DNA from: Escherichia coli
GTDB taxonomy: Bacteria > Pseudomonadota > Gammaproteobacteria > Enterobacterales > Enterobacteriaceae
NCBI RefSeq assembly: GCF_036507355.1
Contig: NZ_AP027877.1
Length of the DNA: 64,000 nucleotides
Strand: one strand, 5' to 3'
Below are positions 1 through 64,000 of this stretch, in pieces. The position numbers were made by a program, and so were the translations under genes. The first letter of the stretch is position 1, and the number at the start of each line of letters is the position of its first letter. The notes under the pieces were generated by a model that was not told the DNA's origin, did no database searches, and saw only the letters and a program-made list of their open reading frames with translations.

Positions 1-61
1 TGGTTGCTGGAAAGAGAAAACCCCCGCACGTTGAGAGGTACAATGAATCGCCACGGATAAT

Positions 62-874
62 CTAGACACTTCCGAGCCGTTGATAATACTGGTTTTCATA
101 TTCTGTCGGTGACATCTGATCGCTGGAACCATGCCGACGCTTACTGTTATAAAACATTTCGATGTAATCAAAAATATCGCTGCGGGCTTCTTCCCGCGTT
201 CCGTAGATCTTTTTCTTTATCCGTTCGCGTTTCAACAACTGGAAAAAGCTTTCTGCAACCGCATTATCATGGCAGTTACCGCGACGGCTCATGCTGCCAT
301 CCAGGCCGTGTGATTTCAGGAACGACTGCCACTCATGGCTTGTGTACTGACTGCCCTGATCCGAATGAACCAGCACCTGTTTTTGGGGATTACGGCGCCA
401 TACAGCCATCAGCAGTGCGTTCAGGACAATGTCCTTTGTCATCCGGGATTGCATGGACCAGCCGATAATTTTGCGTGAGAACAGATCAACAACCACGGCA
501 AGATACAGCCAGCCTTCGTGGGTCCTGATGTAGGTTATGTCCGTTACCCAACGCTTATCCGGAGCATCCGGATTGAACTGTCGCTGGAGCCTGTTGGGCG
601 ACACGATACTGGCCTCGCCTTTACGTGCCCGCGGGCTCCGGTATCCGACCTGAGCCTTTATCCCGACACGTTTCATCAGTCGCCAGACTCTGTTCACTCC
701 GCACTGTTGCCCGCTGTCCCGCAGATCCAGATGGATTTTGCGATAACCATAGACGCATCCCGATTCCAGCCAGAACTGTTTAATCTGCCCTGTCAGCCTC
801 AGGTCTGCCTGATGGCGTTGTGAATGCGGCTGCTGAAGCCAGGCGTAAAAACCACTGGGATGAACATCCAGCAC
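62..874 (-). CDS. IS3-family transposase OrfB (DDE catalytic domain)
   Basis: 270-aa ORF with IS3-type DDE region (HSDQGSQYTS ... DNAVAESFF); normally made as OrfAB by -1 frameshift. Confidence 0.85.
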   Translation of the reverse strand: MLDVHPSGFYAWLQQPHSQRHQADLRLTGQIKQFWLESGCVYGYRKIHLDLRDSGQQCGVNRVWRLMKRVGIKAQVGYRSPRARKGEASIVSPNRLQRQFNPDAPDKRWVTDITYIRTHEGWLYLAVVVDLFSRKIIGWSMQSRMTKDIVLNALLMAVWRRNPQKQVLVHSDQGSQYTSHEWQSFLKSHGLDGSMSRRGNCHDNAVAESFFQLLKRERIKKKIYGTREEARSDIFDYIEMFYNSKRRHGSSDQMSPTEYENQYYQRLGSV

Positions 875-930
875 CCGACAGAGCAGGCGAACAGGCCAGC
901 AACAGGTGTTGTCACGGATAAAGGCGTACC

Positions 931-1215
931 TCAGTCGGACAGCTTTGCGAAGTACGCCGCGGCTTTTTTTAATATGTCCCGTTCGTCGGTAACCCGCTTC
1001 AGCTCTTTCTGGAGACGGCGGATCTCGGCCTGAGCATCTGACTGTTCTTTATTAGCGGAAGAATCCGGACCGTACTTCTTTATCCAGGCGTAAAGGCTGT
1101 GGGTGGTGATATCGAGACGTGTTGCAACGCTGGCAACAGAATAACCGCGATCAACAACCTGTTTGACTGCTTCAATTTTAAACTCTTCGGGATAACGCTT
1201 ACCGCTCATGGGCAC
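931..1215 (-). CDS. IS3-family transposase OrfA (HTH and leucine-zipper part)
   Basis: 94-aa ORF directly upstream of OrfB, ending in the typical ILKKAAAYFA motif. Confidence 0.8.
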   Translation of the reverse strand: MPMSGKRYPEEFKIEAVKQVVDRGYSVASVATRLDITTHSLYAWIKKYGPDSSANKEQSDAQAEIRRLQKELKRVTDERDILKKAAAYFAKLSD

Positions 1216-1357
1216 CTCTCTTTAAGCCATCTTAAATGACTCTGAGGTGTCTGTTAAACCCGTGGCGATTCAACCTGACAACAGAACGGGGGCTAATCTT
1301 GAACCAGAACAATTCAAGAATAGCCGCAAAATGTTGTCATTACAACAAGGCGGCTAT

Positions 1358-1465
1358 ATGACGCTCGCGCAGTTTGCCATGACTTTCTGGCACGACCTGG
1401 CAGCACCGATCCTGGCGGGGATTATTACCGCAGCGATTGTCGGCTGGTGGCGTAACCGGAAGTAA
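1358..1465 (+). CDS. ldr: Ldr-family small toxic peptide (type I toxin)
   Basis: 35-aa peptide MTLAQFAMTFWHDLAAPILAGIITAAIVGWWRNRK matches the Ldr family; located next to kdsA as in K-12. Confidence 0.8.
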   Translation: MTLAQFAMTFWHDLAAPILAGIITAAIVGWWRNRK

Positions 1466-1514
1466 GGTGAAAACGGGCGTCAGGCTGCCGTGATGGCAAT
1501 ATGCGCCCGAAACC

Positions 1515-1546
1515 GGCCGCAGGGGTAACAGCCTGCGGCCTTTTTT
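1515..1546 (+). terminator. Rho-independent terminator downstream of ldr
   Basis: GC-rich hairpin GGCCGCAGG-loop-CCTGCGGCC followed by a T6 run. Confidence 0.6.
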
Positions 1547-1560
1547 GTATCCGGCACCCA

Positions 1561-1600
1561 TAAAAAAAGTCTTAACGCAGAACGCTAAGACTTTATTTTT
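1561..1600 (-). terminator. Rho-independent terminator downstream of kdsA (hairpin flanked by A and T runs)
   Basis: Stem AGTCTTA / TAAGACT flanked by A7 and T-rich runs just 3' of the kdsA stop. Confidence 0.55.
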
Positions 1601-1612
1601 CAAACAAAAAGA

Positions 1613-2476
<864 letters not shown>

Positions 2477-2502
2477 TTAATCTTGAGTAAAATGTCGATT
2501 AA

Positions 2503-3312
2503 TTAATGCAGCACAATATGTTTATGCGCGATGTTATTTATTTGCGCACGGATCATTTCGCTGATCGGGTCTTCCGGACATTGTTCAACGAAATAACTTA
2601 AATCGTTCAACGCAACGTGTTCGCAATCCAGTTGCGCATAAATCAACCCGCGATCGCGAATTTCATAGGGATCTTCAGGGTTGAATTGTAATAAAGCTTC
2701 GCTGGTGCGTAACGCCAGCTCCATCTGATTTTCTTCCATCAACGAGGCTTTGAGTGTATCCAGCAATTTGCGGATTACCTCAATGTTATCAGCTTCATCA
2801 AGGTCTTCATAAAACAGTTCCGCCGACGGGCTGATATTTCCCTTTAACCATACGTCCAGCATATGTTCGCTTAACGATTCACCGTTAAAAGGATTAATCA
2901 GCCAAATTTCGCCATCCGGACATTCAATGCGCAATATCAGCTGCGTAGGGAAAATCACCGGCAGCAGCGGCAAATCGAGACGATTCGCGACCCATAATAA
3001 AACCGCACCTAATGATACCGCACTGCCCTGTCGATTCTTTAACACCTGGTCCAGCCATAATGCATCGGAAAGACGATAAACGCCGCGTGAGGCTTTAAAT
3101 CCCCAGTCGCCGTAAAACAGCGCGATCAGTTTTTCCAGCTGCTCTTCTAAAGGCAGAAGCTGGCTGATTTCTTCCTTCGCCAGACTAACGAGACGCTCCA
3201 GTTCGTCGTAAACATCTTGCGAGGGAAAATCGCGGCGGATTGCTTCGCAAGCCAGGATCATGCCTTCGCACAATGGCGCTTTATTAAATTCGAAATCAGC
3301 TAACGATCTCAT
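2503..3312 (-). CDS. sirB1: SirB1/YchA family protein
   Basis: 269-aa ORF recognised as YchA; conserved position between kdsA and sirB2. Confidence 0.9.
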   Translation of the reverse strand: MRSLADFEFNKAPLCEGMILACEAIRRDFPSQDVYDELERLVSLAKEEISQLLPLEEQLEKLIALFYGDWGFKASRGVYRLSDALWLDQVLKNRQGSAVSLGAVLLWVANRLDLPLLPVIFPTQLILRIECPDGEIWLINPFNGESLSEHMLDVWLKGNISPSAELFYEDLDEADNIEVIRKLLDTLKASLMEENQMELALRTSEALLQFNPEDPYEIRDRGLIYAQLDCEHVALNDLSYFVEQCPEDPISEMIRAQINNIAHKHIVLH

Positions 3313-3315
3313 GAC

Positions 3316-3708
3316 TTACCCCAGTAACGGTACTTTTGTGGTGGCGAGTTTAATGATGATGTACAGCACCACCAACGCCAGCGGGAAGGCAATAATGCGC
3401 GCCTGCTGACTGTGCATACGACGATAATCGAGTGCAATAAAACCCAAAACGATATAAATGATAACTCCAAACAGCTTTTCAGTCAGCCACTGTGCCTGCC
3501 CAGAAAATGGCAGGATGTGCGCTTTAGCCATCAACGCAATGCCGCTTAACAATAACACCGTATCGACAACCGGCGGCACAATGCGCGTCCAGCGAGCAAA
3601 TGCCTGTGGATGCTTCTGATAACGTAGCCAGAAACGTAAGGTTAATAGCCCAACAGAAAGCGCGATACTAATGAGATGAACGCTAAGCAGTGTAGAAAAA
3701 CTTGTCAT
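3316..3708 (-). CDS. sirB2: SirB2/YchQ inner-membrane protein
   Basis: 130-aa hydrophobic ORF recognised as YchQ; conserved synteny. Confidence 0.9.
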   Translation of the reverse strand: MTSFSTLLSVHLISIALSVGLLTLRFWLRYQKHPQAFARWTRIVPPVVDTVLLLSGIALMAKAHILPFSGQAQWLTEKLFGVIIYIVLGFIALDYRRMHSQQARIIAFPLALVVLYIIIKLATTKVPLLG

Positions 3709-4538
3709 TGATAATAGCGGCCGAGCGTTACGCGCTCATTATCACCATAGTCACGGCAGGTTTCGACGTCATGATACCCCGCAAGGATAAATGCTTGTCG
3801 CACCGCTTCGCCCTGCTGCCAGCCATGTTCCAGAAGCAGAAAGCCGCCGGATACCAGCGCGTTACGCGACTGTTCGATGATATGCACGATGTCTGCCATT
3901 CCACTGTCTGCCGCAACCAGCGCAGTGAGCGGCTCAAAGCGGACATCGCCTTGTTGAAGATGAGGGTCCTGCTCGTCAATATACGGCGGATTGCTGACAA
4001 TCATCGCAAACTGCTGCCCGGCTAGCGCGCTAAACCAGTCGCTTTGCAGAATGTGGATATTTTTGATCGCCAGATGCTGGGCATTACGTTGTGCCAGGGC
4101 GACAGCATCGGGCATACGATCTACAGCGGTAATTTCGCAGTCCGGGCGCTCGCGAGCCAGCGCAAGCGCAATCGCCCCGGTACCCGTCCCGAGATCGAGA
4201 ATACGGCAAGGTTGTTCAGGCAACCGCGCCAGTGCCTGCTCCACCAGACACTCCGTATCCGGGCGCGGAATTAAGGTCGCTGGCGAAACAAATAACGGCA
4301 ACGACCAGAATTCTCGCACCCCGGTTAAATGAGCAATGGGTTCACCATCGCGACGACGTGTCAGTAGCGCATCAAGTTGCTGACATTGTTCGTCAGTCAG
4401 CTGCGTTTCACCAAAGGCGAGAATAAAAGTACGCCCTCTGCCGGTAACATGCTCCAGCAGGATTTCAGCATCACGCCGCGGGCTTTCGCTCGCCTGAAGT
4501 TGGCTTATTGCTTCACGTAACCAGTATTGATATTCCAT
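3705..4538 (-). CDS. prmC: Release-factor glutamine N5-methyltransferase (HemK)
   Basis: 277-aa ORF with NPPY methyltransferase motif (VSNPPYI); overlaps prfA stop as in K-12. Confidence 0.95.
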   Translation of the reverse strand: MEYQYWLREAISQLQASESPRRDAEILLEHVTGRGRTFILAFGETQLTDEQCQQLDALLTRRRDGEPIAHLTGVREFWSLPLFVSPATLIPRPDTECLVEQALARLPEQPCRILDLGTGTGAIALALARERPDCEITAVDRMPDAVALAQRNAQHLAIKNIHILQSDWFSALAGQQFAMIVSNPPYIDEQDPHLQQGDVRFEPLTALVAADSGMADIVHIIEQSRNALVSGGFLLLEHGWQQGEAVRQAFILAGYHDVETCRDYGDNERVTLGRYYQ

Positions 4539-5620
4539 TATTCCTGCTCGGACAACGCCGCCAGTTGGTCGGCCTGATGTTCCTGGATAATCGGTTCAAT
4601 CAGCATATCCAGCTTACCTTCCATCACTTCATCCAGGCGGTAGAGCGTCAGGTTGATGCGGTGATCGGTAACGCGCCCCTGCGGGAAGTTGTAAGTACGG
4701 TTACGGTCGCTGCGATCGCCACTCCCCAGCAGGTTACGACGGGTAGACGCTTCGGCCTGTTGCCGTTTTGCCATTTCAGCAGCGTGGATGCGAGCACCGA
4801 GAACAGAAAGTGCTTTAGCTTTGTTTTTATGTTGTGAACGTTCGTCCTGACATTCAACAACAATCCCGGTCGGCAAGTGAGTAATACGAATTGCCGAATC
4901 GGTGGTGTTAACGTGCTGACCACCCGCCCCTGACGAGCGGAAAGTATCAATGCGTAAATCTGCTGGGTTGATGTCCGGCAGTTCTGCGTCAGGCAGTTCT
5001 GGCATTACCGCAACGGTACAAGCAGAAGTATGAATACGACCCTGCGATTCCGTAGCAGGAACACGCTGCACGCGATGACCGCCGGATTCAAATTTCAGAC
5101 GACCATACACACCATCACCGCTAATTTTGGCGATGATCTCTTTATAACCACCATGTTCACCCTCGCTGGCGCTCATGATTTCTACCCGCCAGCGGCGGGC
5201 TTCGGCATAACGGCTGTACATACGGAACAGATCACCCGCGAACAGCGCCGCTTCGTCGCCGCCGGTTCCGGCTCGGACTTCGAGGAAGGCGTTACGTTCG
5301 TCATCAGGATCTTTTGGCAGTAACAGAACCTGTAATTGCTGTTCCAGTTGCTCGCTTTTTTCTTTAGCTTCGCGCAGTTCATCCTGCGCCATCTCACGCA
5401 TTTCAGGATCATCGAGCATCATCTGTGCGGTTTCGATATCTTCCTGAACCTGTTGCCAGTCGGTAAAACAGCGCGAAACATCACTTAACTGCGCATATTC
5501 GCGTGATAATGCGCGAAAACGTTCCTGGTCGGCGATAGTTTGCGCGTCACCCAGCAACGCCTGAACTTCTTCATGGCGTTCATGCAGGGCTTCCAGTTTG
5601 GCAACGATAGAAGGCTTCAT
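4538..5620 (-). CDS. prfA: Peptide chain release factor 1
   Basis: 360-aa ORF with GGQ motif ([11 protein letters not shown]) and PxT-type RF1 region. Confidence 0.95.
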
Positions 5621-5661
5621 AGGCGTAAATGCACCCTGTAAAAAAAGAAAATGATGTACTG

Positions 5662-6918
5662 CTACTCCAGCCCGAGGCTGTCGCGCAGAATATTCAGGCG
5701 TTCGTTATCCCCGTCACGGGCGGCCTGTTGAAGTGATTTCGTTGGCGCATGGATCAAGCGGTTAGTCAGTTTCCATGCCAGATCCTGCATAATGGCTTGC
5801 GCGTCGCCGCCCTGCTCAAGGGCCGCTAACGCTTTGGCGGTTAACTCATCGCGAACTTGCTCTGCCTGGCTGCGATACTCGCGAATGGTTTCGCTGGCGC
5901 TTTGTGCTCGCAGCCACGCCATAAATTCGCTGGTTTCCTGAGCGACAATAGTTTCCGCCTCAACCGCTGCGGCTTTACGCTGCGCCAGGTTGTGCGAAAT
6001 GATGCTTTGCAGATCATCAACGCTATAAAGATAAGCATTCGCCAGTTTGCCAACTTCCGGCTCAACATCGCGCGGAACGGCAATATCCACCAACAGCATT
6101 GGTTGGTTGCGACGGCTTTTTAATGCGCGCTCCACCATGCCTTTCCCGATAATCGGTAACGGGCTGGCGGTGGAACTGATGATGATATCGGCTTCGCGCA
6201 GACGTTCGTCGATATCACTCAGGGCAATCACTTCCGCGCCGACTTCATCTGCCAGAATTTGGGCACGTTCGCGAGTGCGGTTGGCGATAATCATCTTCTG
6301 TACTTTATGTTCGCGCAGATGACGCGCTACCAGCTCGATGGTTTCGCCCGCGCCTACCAGCAACACTGTGACCGTAGAGAGCGATTCAAAGATCTGCCGC
6401 GCCAGCGTACAAGCCGCAAAAGCGACAGACACAGCGCTGGCACCGATATCTGTTTCAGTGCGAACGCGTTTCGCTACAGAGAAAGATTTCTGGAACATGC
6501 GTTCCAGTTCGCTGGCCTTCATATGGCCTTTTTGCGAATCGGCAAACGCTTTTTTAACCTGACCGAGGATCTGCGGCTCCCCAAGAACCAGTGAATCCAG
6601 GCCGCTGGCAACACGCATTAAATGGCTAACCGCGTCGTTATCCTGATGCCAGTAGAGGCTTTTACGCAGATCTTCTTCATTAAGATTGTGATAATCGCAA
6701 AGCCAGCGGATTAACGCCTCTTGCAGGTTATCCTGCTCTTCAACGCTAAGATAAAGTTCCGTGCGGTTGCACGTCGACAGCACCACGCCGCCCTGCACCA
6801 TCGGCTGCGCAAGCAGGCTGTCAAGCGCCTGATCGAGCTTATCCGGCGAAAACGATACACGTTCTCGCAGCGATACAGGTGCCGTTTTATGGTTGATACC
6901 GAGTGCTAAAAGGGTCAT
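5662..6918 (-). CDS. hemA: Glutamyl-tRNA reductase
   Basis: Recognised as HemA; true start taken at the ATG giving [15 protein letters not shown] (ORF-track N-terminal extension rejected); 418 aa. Confidence 0.93.
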
Positions 6919-14126: not shown

Positions 14127-15320
14127 ATGCTCACTGATACACAATGCCGCACTGCCAAACCGAAAGAAAAACTCTATCGACTCAATGATTTCAACGGTCT
14201 CTACCTCGAAGTGAAACCCAATGGTAAAAAGGCTTGGCGTTATCGGTTTAAGCTCAACGGTAAATCCAGCATGTTTGCGCTAGGTGAGTACCCGACGGTC
14301 AAGCTTGCCGAGGCTCGAGAAAAATGCGAGCAAGCGCGAAAGCAGGTTGCGGAAGGAGTCAACCCAGCGCAAGCTCGTCAGTTAGATAAGATTCGTAAGG
14401 TTAACGACGCATCCAACACCTTTGAGCTGATCGCCAAAGAGTGGCTGCAGATGAAAGACTGGGCCGAAATTACCAAAACACGCCGACTGGATATGCTTGA
14501 ACGTGTGGTTTTCCCCTCAATCGGTAAGCTTCCAGTCAGAGAGATCACCCCACACCATATCCTTAAAATTCTTCAGGAAACTGCCAAACGAGGAGCACCG
14601 ACAGTTGCCGCAGAAGCCCGTCGCACCATTTCATCAGTTTTCGAGTTGGCTGTGGCAACGCTTAGAGCTGATAGCGATCCTGTCTGGCCTGTACGCAAGG
14701 CACTTCCGGCGAATAAGACACAGCACAAACAGGCATTGAATCCACAGCAAATCGGGAAGCTATTAAGCTGTTTTGATAACAGTCGCGGCTCATATCAGGT
14801 TAACTATTGCATGTGGCTAATGTGGTGGACGCTGGCGCGACCAGCCGAAGTCACCGAGGCAGAGTGGGCAGAGTTCGATCTTGGTAACGCACTGTGGACC
14901 ATTCCGGCAAGGCGTATGAAAGCTCGTAGGGAACATGTTATTCCCCTTCCTTCCCAAGCCGTCAACATGCTCAAAACACTACAAGGATTAACCGGGCATA
15001 GGCAGCATCTTTTTCCGGGCAGGGATAATCCGCTAGGCCCAATGACATCGCACTCTCTGCGTCAACTACTTAAAAGCCTCGGATGGAATGGCACTTATAG
15101 CCCCCATGCTACCAGAACTACAGGAAGTACGCGTTTAAACGAAATGGGCTATCGACCTGATGCTATTGAGGCCCAACTTGCGCACGCTGATACCAACAAT
15201 GTTCGTCGCACATACAACCATGCAACTTATCTTGATGAGCGAAAGGTTATGATGCAAGACTGGGCAGATAAACTTGAAGGATGGGTAGGAAGCACACACA
15301 GCAATATTGATGTTTCGTAA
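14127..15320 (+). CDS. int: P4-type tyrosine integrase (island left end)
   Basis: 397-aa ORF with phage-integrase boxes (catalytic R in ARPAEV, H-x-x-R in PHATRTT, Tyr in RTYNHATY). Confidence 0.9.
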   Translation: MLTDTQCRTAKPKEKLYRLNDFNGLYLEVKPNGKKAWRYRFKLNGKSSMFALGEYPTVKLAEAREKCEQARKQVAEGVNPAQARQLDKIRKVNDASNTFELIAKEWLQMKDWAEITKTRRLDMLERVVFPSIGKLPVREITPHHILKILQETAKRGAPTVAAEARRTISSVFELAVATLRADSDPVWPVRKALPANKTQHKQALNPQQIGKLLSCFDNSRGSYQVNYCMWLMWWTLARPAEVTEAEWAEFDLGNALWTIPARRMKARREHVIPLPSQAVNMLKTLQGLTGHRQHLFPGRDNPLGPMTSHSLRQLLKSLGWNGTYSPHATRTTGSTRLNEMGYRPDAIEAQLAHADTNNVRRTYNHATYLDERKVMMQDWADKLEGWVGSTHSNIDVS

Positions 15321-19148: not shown

Positions 19149-19504
19149 TGGAGCACCTCAAAAACACCATCATACACTAAATCAGTAAGTTGGCAGCATC
19201 ACCTAAGTCTTGAGCCATTATTTCTATAAAATACATGTTAAATCATATTAGAATAGTTTATACGATAATTCGCTTGAAGAAGAAAAACACTATTCTAATT
19301 CAAACATTTTATATTATCAAGAACCATGGTAATTACAGTTAATTTACAGTATCAGTGATGTGGTTTCCAAAAAAGTATGCCCAAACATTTAAATATATGC
19401 CTTCGATAAATGAACTTTAACTCATCAGAATGACTACCCATCAATACTATTGAGTATATGAAGACAATTCACAGTCCCATCTGGCGAATTTTTCAGATGG
19501 CGAG

Positions 19505-22500
19505 TTAAATATCTTCTGGTGATTCCCCCAGATACATCTTACGGTAATGATACACTTCAAAGAATTTCCCCTTGTCTTTGTAACTACTGATAAAGTAGCA
19601 ATGTGTTAAATACTTTAGCAGGATCTCATTACCTTCAGTTTTGTGAACTTTTGCTCGTTTGGTTTTATCCGCAATCAAATTATATTCTTCCGACACGAAG
19701 GCCATAAGCGCACGATTGATGTATTCAAAAGGCAGTTCTTCACACTCTAAAAGATGATTCAAAAACACAAGTCGAGTGTCATCTTCCGAAACATTAAGAA
19801 GGAGTGCTATACTGACTTTACTATTTAGGCTTATATGGTCGAAGAAACTATTGGTATAGTGCGGCCAGAGAACATTGATGATTGAAACTTTAGTCGTCAA
19901 CTCTATATCGTCATCATTGAGCACAAGCTCAATAAGTTCATTATCGAAATCTTCGTCATCTTGCAGATAAAACTCAATATTATTTTCAAAAACAGCAAGG
20001 TTGTTTCTAATCATAAGCGACAGACACTCATTGAGGCCCTTGCGACGTTGTCCCTCATAAATGCTGAGTACGTCTTCATAGAGCGCTTCTGACAGCAAAA
20101 CTCTGTTGCTCTCACAAAGTGCTTTAAATTTTGTCAGTGGCAGGTCACTGATTACCTTGTCGATACTTACAGGCAGCACGCTGATCAACTGTGCATATAA
20201 CGCGTCTGGCTTATCCGCTGCTGAAATGATGTGATTCACAACATTATCAATAGACTCCTCAGGAACACTGACCTTATGGCCTGAAAGCACCTCTGGATGG
20301 TGAGCAAAAAACGCCCACAATATCTCATCGTCGACATCGGTATACATGTAGTTAAATATGTTATCCCAGTTGGCAGCGACACGCCCATGTTTAAACAAGA
20401 GGTCATAAACAGTGAATGACGCACCCTCAACTACCGATAGCCTGATATTTTCAACTGTCGACAACTGCTGAACTTCAAAATCCATGTTTTCAATTATAAT
20501 TTCTTTGGAACGCTCAGTAGCGTCTGAATTAATTAGTGAAATAACGGATCCAACGCTTTCCTCAGAATGAATGAAATATTCCACAATAAACATCTCAAGG
20601 TTTGTATTTACAGCCTCAATTAAGCATGGGACTTTTTCACTCATAATTAAGGTATATGGATTGCGCGATAGTTCCTCAACATTCTTTCTGTTATTAGAGT
20701 ACGCATTAAACAGTGCAGTGAGGTTATTAATATTAAATACATACAGAAAATTCTCTGCGATAAACTTCACCAACGTACGTTCACTTTCATCGTTAGCTTC
20801 ATTGACGCTATCGAATACAATATTGAGCTCTTTTAATTTTATGCTGAATGACGCAATCTCATCGGGTCGTATGTATGTAAACAACGTAGTGTCTGTTTTT
20901 AATTCATGCAGATAATCCTGAACAGCACTTTGTCGGGTAATGTTTTCTATCAGACCAAAACGAAGTAATGACACAAATAACTGCTGATAAAAATCATCAT
21001 CAGAGTCAATGTCACGGTAAGTACTCATCGCCGCCATCAATTTACCCAATGTCTTTTCATCGCTTAAAATTAAATTAATTAAGTCATGATAGTCATCATT
21101 ACTAAATTCATAAAAATACGTCCGCATAGTGCGAATGATTAAGCCATGTGAGCAATAATTAAATAAATGAATAAAAACATCACGGGCAAAACCAGCTCGG
21201 CAGTTGATCAAAAAGCTAATTATATGCGGATGAAAAATCCCCTCGTAATATTTAAATGATAGCGACTCCATTTTATCTACAACATTGGAAACGTTATTCA
21301 GATGAATATCTTTTAACTCCTCAAAATTCACCTTAGCAGCGACCTTCTGGATATAAACATTATCTGATTTACTTAATGCACCTGCATGGAAGATAGAGCG
21401 ATATTGCATGTAATCCTGCTCAATATATCCATTTGACAACATGAAAAACAACAATTCCATATTGAAATTAATCGCTGAAGGCTTGGATGCATTTTTATTT
21501 CCCTTATCGTCAGTTGATGCAACATTAAGCAACCACTCACTCAATTTCGCTAAGGTTATTTTTTCACATAATTCATGAAGTGATAGGCCATTTCGTTGAT
21601 TAAGAACACGCTGTGTGTTTAAAATATTTTTAGATAATTGCTCAACGGTTTTTTGGTTCTTATCTAAAATAACTGGTGAGCGTTTGTTATATTCACGTAA
21701 ACTCTCAGCTCGCTTATTATGTGGAATTTGGAAGGTATCTTGATATTCATACCCGTTTCTTGAATATGTGATAGCTATTCCGGATGGAAGCTCTCTGTTC
21801 AGAAAATCACAAAACAATGATTCATCCCCACAAAGTTCAACAAAGCTCCAGCTACTCCCAACTTGCCCATACTTATTATGGCTTATATAAAACACTGTAT
21901 TCGATTCAATTTGTTCAGGAAGATAACGCCTTAGAATTTCAACCCTCAGATTTAAACTGGATGTTTGCAATTCCTTTTGTACTTTCACCAACTTTTCTTT
22001 CTGCTGAGAAATCTTTATTTCCAAATCTTTAAAATACACGTCATGTAGCGTTCTCTTAGAGTAAGCATTAACTATTCTGTATAAAAAACCATCCTGATTA
22101 TCAAGCAGAGTGAAATCTTTGGTACATAAATTTTTATACATTATCAAAGAAAATAACTTCACATCAGAAATCTCACCCGTAATTAATTTTTTAAAAATAT
22201 TAAATTCATTTATAACATTATTCATCACCCGCATATCAGTCAGGTAAAGGGATACTTTCTTGAAAAACTGCTCTTTATCTACCGAATTAAAGTTTATAAC
22301 TTTACTACTTAATATGTCATACGCATTCTCACTATCTACTGCAGGTATAATCGGCACAATAAAATCAAAAAATTTTGTTTGTGATTCAGCATCCTTTAAT
22401 AAATCCTCCCTGACTGCAAAAATAAATTTAATCGGTTTCTTTTCCAATAGTCTGGAATTGTTTATCACTTGATTTATTTCACGGAGCTTAATAAAAATAT

Positions 22501-23407
22501 GACCATTGTTTAAACGGTCTAAATCTTCAAATACGACAACTCTATACTTTGTTTTAAGGAAGAAGTAAACAATCTCATCAATATACAAATTTAGCAGAGA
22601 AGCTGTATTCTGTTTTTCCGCCGCAATTTCTGCCTTTAAGAGATTTACTTTATCAAGAGCAATTTTTCTGTCAAAAAATCCTATCCGATAAAAACGAGAC
22701 AGCAGATACCAACAAATGATAAATGATAGCGAACCGATACATCCCCAACGCCATACCGGATGTATCGCAATGAAATGACTCACCGCTGACGGTAATGAAA
22801 ACGTGTTGATAATTTTTTGAGGAAACAACAATGTAGTGACAACGATTGTCAGTATGAGAACAAAAAACAGCAAACAGGATGTTATTAGTATTTGCCCAAC
22901 ACTTCGGGTGTGAATGCGCTCTACCCGCGAATCTGGCAGCGTACCTTTATCCACTTTGTATAAAATCTGCTGTAATATGCTGTATTCAATGCTTTGTTCT
23001 TTTGATAAAGACTCGGAACTTTTTAGTGTCTCATCCGTTTCAAAGTTTGCCAGTGAGATAATCACGTGCTCATCCGCTGGTTTTAAACTTGTAAACCTGA
23101 GCCAATATTTCAGGCGGTGCCACAACCGCTTTCGCCCTTCAATTTTTTTAAGGTATGAGAGAATAACCGAGCTTTTACCCGCGCCATAGGACCCCGTGAT
23201 GGCGATGTTCTTCACATCATCCCGGCTGAGGGCATAATCCAACGCCTTAAAATAGGGTTGATATCCCTCTTTATCAGGATCGACAATCGGTGTTAGCGTT
23301 TGGAATTCCCTTTCCGTTCCTGAATTGTTTTCTGAAGTAACCTGAAGCCTTGCGACTGTTTTATGCAACCAGTCTGCGATCGTTTTCAACCCGAAAGACA
23401 GCGCCAT
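19505..23407 (-). CDS. KAP-family P-loop NTPase with large C-terminal extension (1300 aa)
   Basis: Walker A GSYGAGKSS, two hydrophobic helices inserted before Walker B VVVFEDLDRL (KAP hallmark), then about 900 aa with no recognisable motif; gene visibly AT-rich. Confidence 0.75.
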   Translation of the reverse strand: MALSFGLKTIADWLHKTVARLQVTSENNSGTEREFQTLTPIVDPDKEGYQPYFKALDYALSRDDVKNIAITGSYGAGKSSVILSYLKKIEGRKRLWHRLKYWLRFTSLKPADEHVIISLANFETDETLKSSESLSKEQSIEYSILQQILYKVDKGTLPDSRVERIHTRSVGQILITSCLLFFVLILTIVVTTLLFPQKIINTFSLPSAVSHFIAIHPVWRWGCIGSLSFIICWYLLSRFYRIGFFDRKIALDKVNLLKAEIAAEKQNTASLLNLYIDEIVYFFLKTKYRVVVFEDLDRLNNGHIFIKLREINQVINNSRLLEKKPIKFIFAVREDLLKDAESQTKFFDFIVPIIPAVDSENAYDILSSKVINFNSVDKEQFFKKVSLYLTDMRVMNNVINEFNIFKKLITGEISDVKLFSLIMYKNLCTKDFTLLDNQDGFLYRIVNAYSKRTLHDVYFKDLEIKISQQKEKLVKVQKELQTSSLNLRVEILRRYLPEQIESNTVFYISHNKYGQVGSSWSFVELCGDESLFCDFLNRELPSGIAITYSRNGYEYQDTFQIPHNKRAESLREYNKRSPVILDKNQKTVEQLSKNILNTQRVLNQRNGLSLHELCEKITLAKLSEWLLNVASTDDKGNKNASKPSAINFNMELLFFMLSNGYIEQDYMQYRSIFHAGALSKSDNVYIQKVAAKVNFEELKDIHLNNVSNVVDKMESLSFKYYEGIFHPHIISFLINCRAGFARDVFIHLFNYCSHGLIIRTMRTYFYEFSNDDYHDLINLILSDEKTLGKLMAAMSTYRDIDSDDDFYQQLFVSLLRFGLIENITRQSAVQDYLHELKTDTTLFTYIRPDEIASFSIKLKELNIVFDSVNEANDESERTLVKFIAENFLYVFNINNLTALFNAYSNNRKNVEELSRNPYTLIMSEKVPCLIEAVNTNLEMFIVEYFIHSEESVGSVISLINSDATERSKEIIIENMDFEVQQLSTVENIRLSVVEGASFTVYDLLFKHGRVAANWDNIFNYMYTDVDDEILWAFFAHHPEVLSGHKVSVPEESIDNVVNHIISAADKPDALYAQLISVLPVSIDKVISDLPLTKFKALCESNRVLLSEALYEDVLSIYEGQRRKGLNECLSLMIRNNLAVFENNIEFYLQDDEDFDNELIELVLNDDDIELTTKVSIINVLWPHYTNSFFDHISLNSKVSIALLLNVSEDDTRLVFLNHLLECEELPFEYINRALMAFVSEEYNLIADKTKRAKVHKTEGNEILLKYLTHCYFISSYKDKGKFFEVYHYRKMYLGESPEDI

Positions 23408-35069: not shown

Positions 35070-38000
35070 CTATACCGTCCAGCTGTTCGACACCACTTCA
35101 GCCTGCTTCAGTATCAGTTCAACTGCATAAGGTGTTTTATCTGGCGGATACTTGTACTTACGCAGCGTCTGACGCACCAGAATACGTAACCGCGCACGCA
35201 CGCTTTCTCGCACCTGCCAGTCTACGGTTGTGGACTGGCGCAATTTTAACGTGACTTCGATAGCCAGTTTCTTAAGGACGTCATCACCCAGCTCCCGTAC
35301 CGCACTTTCGTTTTCTGCCAGCGCATCGTAGAACGCGATTTCGTCCGGGTTTAGCCCCAGCGCTTCATCACGCGCCATCGCTTCCTGAAACTCTTTTGCC
35401 ATCTGGATCAGTTCTTCAATCACCTGCGCAGTTTCAATGGCGCGGTTATTGTATTTGAGAAGCACGGCTTTCAGGCGATCTGAGTATTTCTTCTCCTGCA
35501 CCACGTTGTTTTTGGTGCGGGCATGAATGCCGTCGTTCAGCAGTTTCTCCAGCAACTCGACTGCCAGATTACGCTGCGGCAATTCGCGCACTTCTTCCAG
35601 AAACTCGTCTGACAACAATCCAATATTCGGCTTATCCAGACCCGCCAGCGCAAACACATCATCCACGCCCGTCGCAATAATGGCGTTATCGAGGATTTTA
35701 CCGAGTAGCGTATTTTTCTCTGACTGACTGAATTTTTTGTCGGTTGTCGTCAGCTTGATAATCGCCACTTTCACCGCCGACAAAAACGCGATCTCTTTTT
35801 GCAAGGGTTTAGCTTCATCTAACGTACTGCACAGCGACCAGGCTTTGTTCATCGCCAGCACGACATCGAAAAAGCGCTTCTTACCGTCATCAAGGCCCAG
35901 CACATAATCTGCGGCTTTGAGTAAAAACCGTTGGGGCACCTCTGCAAAACCGGTGTAATCAAACCCGGCGGCGGTTGGTGTTTTGGCAAACATTCCATGA
36001 ATCACATCCAGCTTTTCAAGCAGGATGGAGAACGCTTCATGAGCATCGACTGTCGTCTGTCCTTTACCTTTTGAATCGGTATAAGTTTTCAGCGCCTGTT
36101 TCAGTTCATTGGCGATACCGATGTAATCCACCACTAAACCGCCCGGTTTATCTTTGAAGACGCGGTTGACGCGCGCAATGGCCTGCATCAGATTATGCCC
36201 GCGCATCGGTTTGTCGATATACATGGTATGACAACATGGCGCATCAAACCCGGTAAGCCACATATCGCGCACAATCACCAGTTTCAACGGGTCGTTGAGA
36301 TCTTTAAAGCGCGCTTCAAGGCGTTTTTTGGTTTGCTTATTGTAGATGTGCGGCTGAAGGAATTTATTATCGGAGGCTGAGCCGGTCATGATGATTTTGA
36401 TTTCACCTTTCTCGACGTCATCACTGTGCCATTCCGGGCGTAGAGCCACCAGCGCATCATACAGCTTCACGCAGATCTCACGGCTCATGGCAACAATCAT
36501 TGCTTTGCCATTCATTGTGGCGTTACGTGCCTCAAAATGCTGAACCAGATCGGCGGCCACCTCATTGATACGAGGTTCAGAACCAACCAGTTTTTCCAGA
36601 CGGCTCCAGTCACTTTTGGTTTTCTCTTTCTGATCGGTCTCTTCATCTTCGACCAGCTCATCCACCTGATTAGACAGCGTTTCCAGCTCTTCGTGGTTGA
36701 GGTCGAGTTTTGCCAGGCGCGATTCATAGTAGATAGGCACGGTTGCGCCATCTTCCACCGCATCCTGTATATCGTAGATAGAGACGTAATCACCAAACAC
36801 CGCGCGGGTGTCTTTATCTTCGGAAGAAACCGGTGTTCCGGTAAAGCCCATAAACGACGCATTGGGTAACGCATCGCGCATATGTTTGGCGTAACCGTAT
36901 TTATAAGCGCCAGTCTCCCGGTTCAGCGTGGCGCTAAGACCATACTGGCTGCGGTGCGCTTCATCGGAAATGACGACGATATTGCTGCGCAGGTTTAGCG
37001 CCGGGTGAGTCTGTTCGCCATCAAGCGGGGCAAATTTTTGTACGGTGGTAAAAATAATCCCGCCTGATTCACGGACATTGAGCATCTCGCGGAGCTGGTC
37101 GCGATCGTTTGCCTGTAACGGTTCCTGCTTAAGCAAATCCTGTGCCTGGCAGAAGGTGGCATACAGTTGGCCGTCGAGATCGTTACGGTCGGTCACCACC
37201 ACGATGGTCGGGTTGTTCATTTCCGCTTGTTGTAGCAGTTTTCCGGCGTAACAACACATCGAGATACTCTTACCGGAACCCTGCGTATGCCACACCACAC
37301 CGGCTTTTTTACTGCCTGGCGTGATGTTGCTGCGCAGCGGCAAGTGTTTACCGGTAGAGGCCACAATCGTCGCCGTCACCGCTTCACGTACTGCGTGGAA
37401 TTGGTGGTAAGCGGCAATCTTTTTAATCAGTCGTTTGCCGTCGCTTTCAAACAGGATGAAGTAACGAATGTAGTCGAGCAGCAGTTCGCGGTTAAAGAAC
37501 CCTTTTACTACCGTTTCAAGCTGCCATTCAAACAGCGGTTTGTCGTCTTCATTAGACAGCGTTTTCCACGGCAAGAAGCGCTCTTCGTTCGCGGTGAGAG
37601 AGCCAATACGGGCGTTGTAGCCATCGCTGACCACCAGCGCTTCGTTGCAGATGAACAGATCGCTGAGTTCGTTTTTATAGGTCTGCAACTGATTAAATGC
37701 CGCCCAGATATCGGCATTAGCATCAATCGGGCTTTTCAGCTCAATCACTACTACTGGCAATCCGTTGATATAGCAGATAACGTCCGGGCGACGTACCTGC
37801 TTCGTTCCCTGGATGGCCACCTGATTCACCACCGTAAAGTGGTTATTATTTGGGTGGTTAAAATCCATCAGTAGCGCTTTGTCGTGGATAACTTTGTCAT
37901 CCTGCTTGTACTGCACCGGCACGCCGTCGAGCAGCAGGTGATGGAAGGCTTTGTTACTGACGACCAGATCCGGGCTTTGCGCATGGGCGATACGCAGTAT

Positions 38001-38204
38001 CACCTCATCCAGCACGGCAACCGGGAGATGTGGGTTAATCTTTTGCAACTGCTCCAGTAGCACCGGGCGCAAAAACACATCGTGGAACGACGCACGCAGC
38101 GGATTGTTGCCATCTGGCGCAATATCCGGCCCGTGCAATACTTCCCAGCCCAGTTCAGCAAACCATTGCAGGCTTTGCTGTTCTAAATCGTCTTCGCTCA
38201 GCAT
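35070..38204 (-). CDS. hsdR: Type I restriction enzyme R subunit (HsdR)
   Basis: 1044-aa ORF with helicase motifs (Walker [13 protein letters not shown] box [10 protein letters not shown]). Confidence 0.9.
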
Positions 38205-42468: not shown

Positions 42469-42830
42469 GTAAATCCTCGGGGTAGATCGCAGCGAAAGAG
42501 CAACCATGCCTTATCGCAAATTCAGTTTTGGAATGCAGTTCGCAAAATGATACCCGGTACACTTACGATTACAAATGCGCGGTATAAAGAAGTTTGCATT
42601 TGATCGGTGAATAATAGGAAACTCAGTCACTGTTTCGTCTGCAAAATCAGCCATTTCGCCTTCATACGTAGTTCTTCGGTTGAATAGTAAGGTCTATCAT
42701 GCTGCATCGAACGGTGATTTTGATGGATGTTGGAAGTGAGTAGCTGTACGTAATTTTTGATTAAAAGTAATCAAAATGTTGCCAATGGTTATGCTATCGT
42801 GTGTTTTTTGAATATATAACAGGTAAAACT

Positions 42831-43724
42831 ATGTCCTGGCTTAATTCTGTCTTATTGGCGCTTACCTCGGTGCAACCTTATATGGTACCGGCAACCGTTA
42901 TCGGCCTCGTCAGTTTTGCATTCCTCTGTTTTATTTTCTTTTATTTTTTTAGAGCAGTTAAAATTATTAACGGCCTGAAAAAATATACTCAGTCAATTAA
43001 TGGCATCGAAAATAATGAGCCTGGTAATCAGCTTCAGCATCTGCAAAGTTTGTTTGTACAGCCTGAGTTAAAGCACGCCTGGAATGAATTCGAAGAATCG
43101 TTGCACTCACAATATGAACTGGAGGACGGGGAAGAGAAAATCGTCCGTATTAGGGCTACTGCACCGAGCGCCAGTTTCTTCTCGGAGCAACAACTGGTCG
43201 ATATTCCGCTGAACACCGAATTTTTCAAACACCTGCCCGGTATTCTGACCGGTGTGGGGATTATCGGTACCTTCTACGGTCTGATGATTGGTCTCAACCA
43301 CTTCGACCCCAGCACACCAGAGCAGGTCTCCAGCAGCGTCAATAATCTGCTTCGCGATGTGCTGTACGCCTTCCTCGGTTCAGCATTTGCGATTACGTTC
43401 TCTATCCTTATCACCTGGCTGGAGAAATTCTGTCTGGCGAAATGCTACAAATATCTGGAAAAATTCACCGCAGCTCTCGACGCCCTCTATGACAGCGGTG
43501 TTGGCGAGGAGTACCTTGCCTCACTGGTAAAATCCAGTAATGAAAGCGCGACCCAGGCACGCCATCTGAAAGAGAGCCTGGTTACCGATTTACGCGATAT
43601 GCTGCTGCATCTGGCCAACAGCCAGAAAGTGGAAAACGAGCGGCTAGCGACCACCCTCAGCACCACCTATCGCGAAACAGGACAACAGTTTGCCGAGCAA
43701 GTCAGCGGTGCGATTGAAAACTGA
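42831..43724 (+). CDS. MotA/TolQ/ExbB-like membrane protein, 3' end interrupted by IS629-like element
   Basis: Three predicted TM helices; motif LPGILTGVGIIGTFYGLMIGL resembles MotA/ExbB proton-channel proteins; the stop codon TGA is the first 3 nt of the IS. Confidence 0.55.
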   Translation: MSWLNSVLLALTSVQPYMVPATVIGLVSFAFLCFIFFYFFRAVKIINGLKKYTQSINGIENNEPGNQLQHLQSLFVQPELKHAWNEFEESLHSQYELEDGEEKIVRIRATAPSASFFSEQQLVDIPLNTEFFKHLPGILTGVGIIGTFYGLMIGLNHFDPSTPEQVSSSVNNLLRDVLYAFLGSAFAITFSILITWLEKFCLAKCYKYLEKFTAALDALYDSGVGEEYLASLVKSSNESATQARHLKESLVTDLRDMLLHLANSQKVENERLATTLSTTYRETGQQFAEQVSGAIEN

Positions 43725-43775
43725 ACCGCCCCGGGAATCCTGGAGACTAAACTTCCTGAGAAAGAGGTAAACAGG

Positions 43776-50840: not shown

Positions 50841-51072
50841 CGCCTCTTTGATAACGCATCATACTGCCAGCGGAATAACTCTCTTCGTCAATACGGCTCT
50901 CGCTGTACGCTTACCCATCTAGAGAGGTTTCAGGTGATTATCGATGTCAGAAGACTGAATGATTCAGTCGTTTACTTTGAGATAGATCAGAGGTTTTTCA
51001 CTACCTGTGTTCATCACATGGCTACGAATAGTAGAATCCAAGCATAAATTAACGCTTAGAAAAGTTGAGCTC

Positions 51073-52272: not shown

Positions 52273-52308
52273 CGCGACGAAGATGATAACCCGTCAGATT
52301 ACCATCGC

Positions 52309-63127: not shown

Positions 63128-64000
63128 TGAATCGCCACGGATAATCTAGACACTTCCGAGCCGTTGATAATACTGGTTTTCATATTCTGTCGGTGACATC
63201 TGATCGCTGGAACCATGCCGACGCTTACTGTTATAAAACATTTCGATGTAATCAAAAATATCGCTGCGGGCTTCTTCCCGCGTTCCGTAGATCTTTTTCT
63301 TTATCCGTTCGCGTTTCAACAACTGGAAAAAGCTTTCTGCAACCGCATTATCATGGCAGTTACCGCGACGGCTCATGCTGCCATCCAGGCCGTGTGATTT
63401 CAGGAACGACTGCCACTCATGGCTTGTGTACTGACTGCCCTGATCCGAATGAACCAGCACCTGTTTTTGGGGATTACGGCGCCATACAGCCATCAGCAGT
63501 GCGTTCAGGACAATGTCCTTTGTCATCCGGGATTGCATGGACCAGCCGATAATTTTGCGTGAGAACAGATCAACAACCACGGCAAGATACAGCCAGCCTT
63601 CGTGGGTCCTGATGTAGGTTATGTCCGTTACCCAACGCTTATCCGGAGCATCCGGATTGAACTGTCGCTGGAGCCTGTTGGGCGACACGATACTGGCCTC
63701 GCCTTTACGTGCCCGCGGGCTCCGGTATCCGACCTGAGCCTTTATCCCGACACGTTTCATCAGTCGCCAGACTCTGTTCACTCCGCACTGTTGCCCGCTG
63801 TCCCGCAGATCCAGATGGATTTTGCGATAACCATAGACGCATCCCGATTCCAGCCAGAACTGTTTAATCTGCCCTGTCAGCCTCAGGTCTGCCTGATGGC
63901 GTTGTGAATGCGGCTGCTGAAGCCAGGCGTAAAAACCACTGGGATGAACATCCAGCACCCGACAGAGCAGGCGAACAGGCCAGCAACAGGTGTTGTCACG
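63128..64000 (-). mobile_element. IS3-family insertion sequence, second copy (partial in window), direct orientation relative to copy at 44-1272
   Basis: Identical to copy 1 from its terminus TGAATCGCCACGG onward; the two flanks differ, so these are separate insertions. Confidence 0.85.
63146..63958 (-). CDS. IS3-family transposase OrfB (copy 2)
   Basis: 270-aa ORF identical to the one at 62-874. Confidence 0.85.
   Translation of the reverse strand: MLDVHPSGFYAWLQQPHSQRHQADLRLTGQIKQFWLESGCVYGYRKIHLDLRDSGQQCGVNRVWRLMKRVGIKAQVGYRSPRARKGEASIVSPNRLQRQFNPDAPDKRWVTDITYIRTHEGWLYLAVVVDLFSRKIIGWSMQSRMTKDIVLNALLMAVWRRNPQKQVLVHSDQGSQYTSHEWQSFLKSHGLDGSMSRRGNCHDNAVAESFFQLLKRERIKKKIYGTREEARSDIFDYIEMFYNSKRRHGSSDQMSPTEYENQYYQRLGSV

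What the first reader, a model, noticed from the sequence alone, without database searches (positions are those of the whole stretch)
1272..1465. Single ldr toxin gene with an IS inserted 86 bp upstream
Only one Ldr peptide gene is present where K-12 carries tandem ldr/rdl repeats, and the IS3-family element ends 86 bp upstream of the ldr start, within the region expected to hold the ldr promoter/leader and the antisense Rdl RNA. This may have uncoupled the toxin from its antitoxin RNA or silenced it.
Basis: partly seen in the sequence, partly recalled or inferred. Interest (0 to 1): 0.35.

Follow-up and report, generated by a model that had tools for sequence, protein, structure and literature searches.

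The report
IS element splits an ldr/rdl toxin locus
A 1.2-kb insertion sequence has landed inside the small antisense antitoxin gene (rdl) of one copy of the E. coli Ldr toxin repeat, cutting the intact toxin gene off from its promoter; this is an ordinary, previously documented way for such toxin-antitoxin copies to be knocked out.

Summary
An intact 35-aa Ldr toxin gene (1358-1465, +) lies 85 nt to the right of a 1229-bp IS3-family element (44-1272). The locus is the kdsA-proximal LDR copy, the K-12 ldrA/rdlA position, not ldrD.

With the IS removed, the two flanks rejoin exactly as in K-12 LDR-A, apart from one duplicated base. The insertion point is between nt 38 and 39 of the 67-nt RdlA RNA, at the apical loop of its terminator stem-loop. 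Rfam's rdlD model scores 86-92 bits on every intact copy and finds nothing in the window.

Right of the IS, the rdl promoter candidate, Rdl nt 1-38, the ldrX leader ORF, ldr and its terminator are all intact. The ldr promoter and about 100 nt of leader are now 1.2 kb away, beyond the window edge.

Most likely this copy is disabled: ldr is transcriptionally orphaned and rdl is truncated and reads into the IS. That functional outcome is inferred, not shown.

"Single ldr" cannot be judged, because the window begins 43 bp left of the IS. Related genomes carry one to three copies at this locus.

IS disruption of hok/sok and ldr loci is already documented, so interest is low. This exact junction occurs in none of 5,426 complete E. 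coli genomes.

The parts
1..43 (+). Left fragment of the LDR repeat (ldr 5' leader). On the minus strand it holds the 3' part of rdl (nt 39-67, about window 42->14), including the 3' arm of the Rdl terminator hairpin and the U-run.
   Evidence: Identical to K-12 L002 2361-2403. Collinear with K-12 LDR-A once the IS is removed. Terminator-like site on the minus strand at 39->20.
44..1272 (-). IS3-family insertion sequence, copy 1 (1229 bp). Inverted repeats at 44-81 and 1235-1272. orfA 931-1209 and orfB 62-874 on the minus strand (programmed frameshift). Own promoter-like site TTAACA-17-TAAGAT at 1257->1229.
   Evidence: Inverted repeats. Pfam HTH_Tnp_1 and rve. 99.8-99.9% identical copies in many E. 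coli genomes, annotated 'IS3 family transposase, programmed frameshift'. 1 mismatch in 1229 against L004. Promoter-like site.
1273..1310 (-). 5' fragment of rdl (Rdl nt 1-38): the single-stranded 5' tail and the 5' arm of the stem-loop. Transcription start at 1310, reading leftward into the IS.
   Evidence: Maps to K-12 rdlA L002 2324-2361. Rfam rdlD structure. The stub has no stable fold: -3.7 kcal/mol against -27.1 for native RdlA.
1317..1345 (-). Candidate rdl promoter (-35 TTGTAA at 1345-1340, 17-nt spacer, -10 TATTCT at 1322-1317). Intact and identical to K-12 LDR-A.
   Evidence: Relaxed hexamer scan, 8 of 12 matches, ending 6 nt before the annotated rdlA 5' end. Sequence identity to K-12. 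Position is inferred, not shown experimentally.
1299..1361 (+). ldrX-type leader ORF (TTG start, 20 codons, LNQNNSRIAAKCCHYNKAAI). Shine-Dalgarno GGGGG at 1288-1292. Its TGA stop overlaps the ldr ATG (ATGA). Its start region is complementary to the Rdl 5' part.
   Evidence: ORF and frame conserved in K-12 LDR-A, B and C. Fits the published description of ldrX as overlapping the toxin's translation initiation region. Equating this ORF with ldrX is my inference.
1358..1465 (+). ldr toxin gene, 35 aa, intact. The peptide is identical to K-12 LdrB.
   Evidence: PF13940, 91.6 bits.
1515..1546 (+). ldr intrinsic terminator (9-bp GC-rich stem followed by a T-run).
   Evidence: The same hairpin follows each K-12 ldr copy.
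63128..64000 (-). Second copy of the same IS, in the same orientation, cut off by the window end. It lies inside ycgV.
   Evidence: 100% identity over 873 bp. Mapped into ycgV by comparison with ET826.

Best explanation
A 1229-bp IS3-family element transposed into the kdsA-proximal LDR repeat, the K-12 ldrA/rdlA position. It entered at the apical loop of the Rdl terminator stem-loop, between Rdl nt 38 and 39.

Shown:
- rdl is split into a promoter-proximal 38-nt stub (1310->1273) and a 3' fragment with the terminator (about 42->14) on the far side of the IS.
- ldr, its ribosome-binding site, the ldrX leader ORF and the ldr terminator are intact and identical to functional copies.
- They are separated by the IS from everything upstream of leader position about -86.

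Inferred:
- The ldr promoter lies about 185 bp upstream of the ATG, so it is now 1.2 kb away and beyond the window edge.
- Transcripts from it would have to cross the IS antisense to the transposase genes as untranslated RNA, so little or no ldr mRNA is made.
- The rdl promoter still fires. It produces an Rdl(1-38)::IS read-through RNA that lacks the stabilising stem-loop and meets no terminator until the displaced native rdl terminator on the other side of the IS.
- In that read-through RNA the IS inverted-repeat sequence CACCUC pairs with the orfA Shine-Dalgarno GAGGUG, so transposase translation is probably not boosted.

Net effect: this copy of the type I toxin-antitoxin module is disabled. 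Other Rdl copies elsewhere in the genome could cover any leaky ldr expression.
For: - Both flanks map contiguously onto K-12 LDR-A with a 1-base overlap.
- K-12 annotates rdlA at L002 2324-2390, and the insertion corresponds to L002 2361.
- Rfam rdlD scores 86-92 bits on all five intact copies in K-12 and ws5-3. It gives no hit in window 1-6000 at E<=1.
- Native RdlA folds at -27.1 kcal/mol (z = -4.7), with nt 35-38 and 42-45 forming the apical stem. The 38-nt stub folds at only -3.7 kcal/mol.
[quoted passage not shown] They also state that ldrX, in that UTR, is translationally coupled to ldr.
- A published RNase III dsRNA peak lies within the rdlD/ldrD overlap, so the ldr mRNA starts upstream of the insertion point.
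- A relaxed scan places a TAGTAT -10 at L002 2472-2467. This gives a leader of about 184 nt.
- No promoter-like site of 8 or more matches out of 12 faces ldr in the IS end. There is one weak plus-strand terminator at 945-962, and no minus-strand terminator inside the IS.
- Precedent: the chromosomal hok/sok copies of K-12 are inactivated by IS elements among other lesions. IS150 insertions arose independently in the chaA/ldrC and ldrC/ldrB intergenic regions of evolved E. coli B.
Against: - There are no expression data. Silencing of ldr is inferred from geometry only.
- The ldr transcription start was not available from an accessible primary source. The strict promoter scan finds no promoter in the LDR even in K-12, so promoter positions rest on weak matches and on published statements about the overlap.
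- Read-through across the IS, or a weak IS-internal promoter, could still give some ldr mRNA. Two 7-of-12 matches lie at 1114-1142 and 1151-1179 on the plus strand. Such an mRNA would keep the ldrX and ldr translation signals.
- The target duplication is 1 bp, not the 3 bp seen at other copies of this IS. The insertion event was therefore not entirely canonical.
Confidence: 0.8

Rival explanations
1. The toxin gene is still expressed. Transcription reads through the IS from the displaced ldr promoter or starts at a weak promoter inside the IS end. This gives an mRNA with a foreign 5' leader that keeps the ldrX and ldr translation signals. It is held in check in trans by Rdl from other LDR copies, or by the Rdl(1-38)::IS chimera. 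The locus would then be rewired rather than dead.
For: - The ldrX Shine-Dalgarno and start, the ldr ribosome-binding site, the coding sequence and the terminator are all intact.
- Only one weak plus-strand terminator-like site lies inside the IS.
- Two 7-of-12 promoter-like matches lie on the plus strand in the IS end.
- The first 38 nt of Rdl, complementary to the ldrX start region, are still downstream of an intact promoter candidate.
- 5,425 of 5,426 E. coli genomes carry at least one intact rdl region, with a median of four.
Against: - About 1.2 kb of untranslated antisense RNA is a typical substrate for Rho-dependent termination (general knowledge, not tested here).
- It would also meet convergent transcription from the rdl and IS promoters.
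- The promoter-like matches are no better than chance: the strict scan finds 2 in the region against 1.4 expected.
- An unregulated toxin would be counter-selected.
Confidence: 0.13
2. The main functional consequence is for the IS rather than the toxin-antitoxin module. The constitutive rdl promoter now drives transcription into the IS in the sense direction of orfA/orfB, raising transposase expression and the transposition rate of this element.
For: - The rdl start at 1310 reads leftward into the IS end that precedes orfA (ATG at 1209).
- No minus-strand terminator occurs before the native rdl terminator at 39->20.
- A second identical copy lies 62 kb away in the same window. Some strains carry up to 18 matching places for the window 1-1470 query.
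Against: - In the predicted fold of the read-through RNA, the IS-end sequence CACCUC pairs with the orfA Shine-Dalgarno GAGGUG. This is the usual way IS elements block translation of transcripts that enter from outside.
- The chimera's fold as a whole is not better than shuffled controls (z = -0.72), so this is only suggestive.
- Rdl promoter strength in this context is unknown.
Confidence: 0.05
3. The junction is an assembly artefact: a repeat-induced mis-join of IS and LDR repeats, not a real insertion.
For: - Both the IS and the LDR are multicopy repeats.
- The target duplication is atypical: 1 bp instead of 3 bp.
- The junction is found in no other genome or metagenome searched.
Against: - Both flanks rejoin to within one base at a single point of the same LDR copy. 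A random mis-join would not produce that.
- The IS is complete, with both ends.
Confidence: 0.02

Closest known systems
E. coli K-12 ldrA/rdlA (LDR-A), the kdsA-proximal unit of the ldrABC tandem type I toxin-antitoxin repeats
   Same: - Same chromosomal position next to kdsA.
- Once the IS is removed, the leader, rdl, the ldrX region and the terminator are identical or nearly identical to LDR-A: 9 differences over about 390 aligned bases, none in the rdl/ldrX region.
- The toxin is 35 aa and matches PF13940.
   Different: - rdl is split by a 1229-bp IS, and ldr is detached from its promoter.
- The peptide has the K-12 LdrB sequence (T9, G29), not LdrA (I9, S29). The copy is therefore a mosaic of repeat types.
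Chromosomal hok/sok loci of E. coli K-12 inactivated by insertion sequences (Pedersen and Gerdes 1999, as cited in PMC2654758)
   Same: A chromosomal type I toxin/antisense-RNA module with an intact toxin ORF, disabled by an IS inserted in its regulatory or transcript region.
   Different: - A different toxin family (Hok versus Ldr) and different IS elements.
- From my own recollection, not checked here, the K-12 hok insertions lie downstream of the toxin ORF. Here the IS is in the 5' leader and antitoxin gene.
IS150 insertions in the chaA/ldrC and ldrC/ldrB intergenic regions during experimental evolution of E. coli B REL4536 (PMC5419217)
   Same: - Same locus (the chaA-kdsA LDR array) and the same class of event: an IS3-family element inserted into the non-coding part of an LDR unit.
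- The authors interpret those insertions as inactivation of the toxin-antitoxin system.
   Different: - A different IS (IS150, against this unnamed 1229-bp IS3-family element).
- A different LDR unit, and laboratory lines rather than a natural genome.
- The exact positions of those insertions relative to rdl were not mapped here.

Membership tests
Ldr/Rdl type I toxin-antitoxin module (LDR repeat) | 35-aa hydrophobic Ldr peptide matching Pfam PF13940 | tested here: met
   91.6 bits against a cut-off of 27, full-length match 1-35. Identical to K-12 LdrB.
Ldr/Rdl type I toxin-antitoxin module (LDR repeat) | Intact cis-encoded Rdl antisense RNA gene (Rfam RF01813) upstream of ldr on the opposite strand | tested here: not met
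   No rdlD hit in window 1-6000 at E<=1. All five control copies score 86-92 bits. The gene is split into nt 1-38 (1310->1273) and nt 39-67 (about 42->14) by the IS.
Ldr/Rdl type I toxin-antitoxin module (LDR repeat) | Long contiguous ldr 5' UTR containing the ldrX leader ORF, which overlaps the ldr start | tested here: inconclusive
   An ldrX-type ORF at 1299-1361 with an ATGA overlap is present and conserved. The UTR is interrupted 85 nt upstream of the ATG, and its 5' part and promoter lie beyond the IS and the window edge.
Ldr/Rdl type I toxin-antitoxin module (LDR repeat) | Location in the chaA-kdsA intergenic LDR array | tested here: inconclusive
   The kdsA side is confirmed. The chaA side lies outside the window.
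Ldr/Rdl type I toxin-antitoxin module (LDR repeat) | Toxicity of Ldr and its repression by Rdl | not testable with these tools
   Needs expression and viability experiments.
IS3-family insertion sequence | orfA (helix-turn-helix) and orfB (DDE/rve integrase core) joined by a programmed -1 frameshift | tested here: met
   HTH_Tnp_1 at 72 bits and rve at 115 bits. Copies differing by 1 nt are annotated 'IS3 family transposase, programmed frameshift'.
IS3-family insertion sequence | Imperfect terminal inverted repeats ending 5'-TG...CA-3' | tested here: met
   38-nt arms, 74% complementary, TGAATCGCC...GGCGATTCA.
IS3-family insertion sequence | 3-bp direct target duplication | tested here: not met
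   Three other copies have 3-bp repeats (GCG, AGA, TCC). This copy shows GGTACAA|IS|ACCTG against native GGTACAACCTG, so only 1 base is duplicated. This concerns the insertion event, not the identity of the element.
IS-inactivated chromosomal type I toxin-antitoxin locus | IS inserted in the transcript or regulatory region while the toxin ORF stays intact | tested here: met
IS-inactivated chromosomal type I toxin-antitoxin locus | Loss of toxin expression or killing activity | not testable with these tools
   Requires RNA or protein measurement, or a killing assay.

The most novel reading that the evidence does not exclude
The insertion may not be a random hit. IS3-family elements (this one, and IS150 in evolved E. 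coli B) may preferentially enter the hairpin-forming rdl/leader DNA of LDR repeats. The resulting Rdl(1-38)::IS fusion transcript would put transposase mRNA under the constitutive antitoxin promoter. The same RNA would keep the 5' tail that pairs with the ldrX start region. One RNA would then serve as both transposase message and residual antitoxin.
Probability: 0.06. Interest if true: 0.4.

Novelty: new member of a known kind. Interest (0 to 1): 0.12.

Why it matters
Mostly it does not. This is one more natural example of mobile-element decay of a redundant chromosomal type I toxin-antitoxin copy, a process already described for hok/sok in K-12 and for ldr in evolved laboratory lines.

Its modest value is as a clean, base-resolved case:
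- The toxin ORF and all its translation signals are intact.
- The antitoxin RNA is cut exactly in its terminator loop.
- The toxin promoter is displaced.

A strain with this allele would be a natural 'promoterless ldr, truncated rdl' mutant. It could be used to test the still unproven ldrX-coupling model of Rdl action.

Tried and rejected
Rejected as the comparator. The flanking genes and exact flank matches show the locus is the ldrA/rdlA position. ldrD/rdlD was fetched only to relate the published dsRNA data.
- **Strict sigma-70 scan for the ldr and rdl promoters.** It finds none, even in intact K-12 LDR-A. I used a relaxed hexamer scan instead and treat its promoter positions as weak inference.
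- **Primary and review papers with transcript maps** (Kawano 2012 RNA Biol; Fozo 2008 MMBR). They are not held in the library. I could not cite the experimentally mapped ldr 5' end.
- **The Rfam 'sok' match at 1245-1360** (18 bits, E = 0.91, gathering score 59). Dismissed as chance.
- **ET881 as the pre-insertion ancestor.** Rejected. Its 100% identity is confined to the mobile island, and the backbone at ldr-kdsA is only about 99% identical.
- **Searches for the same junction, to read leftward.** Nothing was found in 5,426 complete E. coli genomes, the GTDB representative genomes or the metagenome contigs. The ldr copy number in the source genome remains unknown.
- **Counting IS-disrupted rdl copies across E. 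coli with an rdl-centred query**. The search reports only the best place per record, so it shows that nearly every genome keeps at least one intact copy. It does not show how many copies are broken.
- **ISfinder name of the element.** Not determinable with these tools; RefSeq records call it only 'IS3 family transposase'.

Full report
**What is in the sequence**

- Window 44-1272 is a complete 1229-bp IS3-family insertion sequence.
  - It has 38-nt imperfect terminal inverted repeats at 44-81 and 1235-1272, running TGAATCGCC...GGCGATTCA.
  - orfA (931-1209, minus strand) matches HTH_Tnp_1. orfB (62-874, minus strand) matches the rve integrase core.
  - Copies 99.8-99.9% identical occur in many E. 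coli chromosomes and plasmids, annotated 'IS3 family transposase, programmed frameshift'. The window copy differs from one of them by 1 base in 1229.
- To its right, 1358-1465 (+) encodes a 35-aa peptide that matches Pfam Ldr_toxin over its full length at 91.6 bits. The peptide is identical to K-12 LdrB.
- A GC-rich hairpin with a T-run at 1515-1546 is the ldr terminator.
- kdsA (1613-2467, minus strand), sirB1 and sirB2 follow.
The IS ends at 1272, the ATG is at 1358, and 85 nt lie between them.

**Which ldr locus this is**

The gene neighbourhood and exact flank matches place the locus in the chaA-kdsA LDR array. It is the unit next to kdsA, which in K-12 is ldrA/rdlA, not ldrD/rdlD.

**Where exactly the IS sits**

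- Window 1-43 matches K-12 L002 2361-2403 exactly. Window 1273-1312 matches L002 2322-2361 exactly.
- With the IS removed, the window is collinear with K-12 LDR-A through the junction (GAGAGGTACAACCTGACAAC). Only one base (A) is present on both sides.
- K-12 annotates rdlA at L002 2324-2390 on the strand opposite ldr. The IS therefore lies between Rdl nt 38 and 39.
- In the Rfam rdlD consensus structure and in the minimum-free-energy fold of RdlA (-27.1 kcal/mol, z = -4.7), nt 35-38 pair with nt 42-45. The IS is thus at the edge of the apical loop of the long terminator stem-loop.
- Positive control: RF01813 scores 86-92 bits on all three K-12 copies and both ws5-3 copies. Nothing is found in window 1-6000, even at E<=1.

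**What survives on the ldr side (1273-1546)**

- Rdl nt 1-38 (1310->1273, minus strand), which alone has no stable structure at -3.7 kcal/mol.
- A promoter candidate for rdl, TTGTAA-17-TATTCT at 1345->1317. It ends 6 nt before the annotated rdlA 5' end and is identical to K-12.
- A 20-codon ORF at 1299-1361.
  - It starts at TTG, preceded by GGGGG at 1288-1292.
  - Its TGA stop overlaps the ldr ATG as ATGA.
  - It is conserved in frame in K-12 LDR-A, B and C.
  - It fits the published description of ldrX: a small ORF in the long 5' UTR that overlaps the toxin's translation initiation region and is translationally coupled to it, with Rdl proposed to block ldrX translation. Equating the two is my inference.
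- The ldr ribosome-binding site, coding sequence and terminator.

**What is displaced**

- Reviews state that Rdl overlaps the long ldr 5' UTR rather than the ribosome-binding site or start codon.
- An RNase III dsRNA peak has been mapped inside the rdlD/ldrD overlap. By my conversion of genome-version coordinates, which is approximate, it covers roughly rdlD nt 5-44.
- The ldr mRNA therefore begins upstream of the insertion point, and its promoter must be on the far side of the IS.
- A relaxed scan of K-12 LDR-A gives ATGAAG-18-TAGTAT at L002 2496->2467. This implies a leader of about 184 nt and an mRNA of about 370 nt.
  - That length agrees with my recollection of the size reported by Kawano et al. 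2002, which I could not check.
  - The position would be about 60 bp beyond the left edge of the window.
  - The strict scan finds no LDR promoters even in K-12, so these positions are weak inference.

**Likely consequences (inferred)**

- Transcripts from the ldr promoter would have to cross 1.2 kb of IS, antisense to the transposase genes. They would be untranslated and would run against the rdl and IS promoters.
- One weak terminator-like hairpin lies on that strand at 945-962.
- No promoter-like site better than 7 of 12 matches faces ldr from the IS end.
- The simplest expectation is that ldr is silent.
- The rdl promoter now reads into the IS in the sense direction of orfA. No minus-strand terminator occurs until the displaced native rdl terminator at 39->20.
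- In the predicted fold of this read-through RNA, the IS-end sequence CACCUC pairs with the orfA Shine-Dalgarno GAGGUG.
  - Transcripts from the IS's own promoter-like site (1257->1229) would start downstream of CACCUC and escape this pairing.
  - This resembles the usual protection of IS elements against outside transcription, so a large boost of transposase is not expected.
  - The chimera's fold as a whole is no better than shuffled controls (z = -0.72), so this is only suggestive.
- Any leaky ldr expression could be covered in trans. 5,425 of 5,426 complete E. coli genomes keep at least one intact rdl region, with a median of four places per genome.

**The 'single ldr' claim**

- The window begins 43 bp left of the IS, and those 43 bp are LDR sequence. 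Further units, if any, lie outside the window.
- At this locus ws5-3 has 2 ldr genes. K-12, ET881 and ET826 have 3.
- Many B2 strains such as UTI89 and S88 have a single matching place in the whole genome.
- Copy number is thus naturally variable. The claim is undecidable here and would be unremarkable if true.
- No other ldr is present inside the window.

**Rarity and precedent**

- The exact junction is absent from 5,426 complete E. coli genomes. The best places cover only the IS, 84% of the query.
- It is also absent from the GTDB representative genomes and the metagenome contigs.
- The kind of event is well known.
  - IS150, also of the IS3 family, inserted independently into the chaA/ldrC and ldrC/ldrB intergenic regions in evolved E. 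coli B. The authors interpreted this as toxin-antitoxin inactivation.

**Oddity**

Three other copies of this IS are flanked by 3-bp direct repeats: GCG, AGA and TCC. Here only one base is duplicated. I have no explanation. Possibilities are a non-canonical strand transfer, or a later 2-bp loss at the IS end where the terminal CA coincides with the target CAA.

**Verdict**

This is a real, precisely mapped IS insertion that splits rdl and orphans an otherwise intact ldr/ldrX unit. It is most probably a dead toxin-antitoxin copy. It is a new instance of a known kind of event and of low interest.

Noticed in passing
window 63128-64000: A second copy of the same 1229-bp IS3-family element lies here. 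It is 100% identical over the 873 bp visible, has the same orientation as copy 1, and is inserted inside ycgV. The two direct copies bracket about 61.8 kb that includes essential genes (kdsA, prfA, hemA, lolB, ispE, prs, pth) and a mobile island.
   Followed up: partly
window 43/44 and 1272/1273: The target duplication at IS copy 1 is only 1 bp: GGTACAA|IS|ACCTG against native GGTACAACCTG. Three other copies of this IS in E. coli have 3-bp direct repeats (GCG, AGA, TCC). Unexplained.
   Followed up: partly
window about 14100-61500: A large mobile and defence island lies between ychF and ycgV, bounded by two integrase genes (about 14127-15320 and about 60247-61443). Going by the ET826 annotation, it carries IS21, IS1 and ISKpn26 elements, a CbtA/YeeU-type toxin-antitoxin remnant, a type I restriction-modification system (hsdR at about 35070-38200), a SIR2-family protein (about 51000-53000) and ars remnants. 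It is 99.98-100% identical to islands in E. coli ET881 and ET826, whereas the backbone is only about 99-99.6% identical.
   Followed up: partly
window 42801-44989: The type I Zorya system is mostly deleted relative to ET826. zorA1 is truncated at 43724 (a 307-aa ORF). It sits directly next to a different IS3-family element (ORFs 43776-44102 and 44099-44989). About 7.2 kb is missing: the 3' part of zorA1, zorB1, zorC and zorD. This looks like an IS-adjacent deletion.
   Followed up: partly
window 19505-23407 (minus strand): An intact 1300-aa ORF; related genomes annotate matching DNA as a P-loop NTPase (YobI family). About 3.9 kb of it (19208-23149) is absent from ET826, where an IS1 sits at the breakpoint.
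   Followed up: partly
window 1358-1465 against flanks 1-43 and 1273-1357: The Ldr peptide has the K-12 LdrB sequence (T9, G29). The leader and rdl region are A-type, and the downstream flank is the kdsA-proximal one. The unit is therefore a mosaic, consistent with gene conversion or unequal recombination among LDR repeats.
   Followed up: partly
window 1236-1361 and 1247-1465: The insertion creates two open fusion frames. An ATG at 1236 inside the IS end is in frame with ldrX (41-aa ORF). A GTG at 1247 is in frame with ldr (72-aa ORF). Neither has an obvious ribosome-binding site, so they are probably meaningless.
   Followed up: no
window 1245-1360 (+): A weak Rfam match to the sok antitoxin model (18 bits against a gathering score of 59, E = 0.91) spans the IS end and the ldr leader. 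I judged it a chance match.
   Followed up: yes
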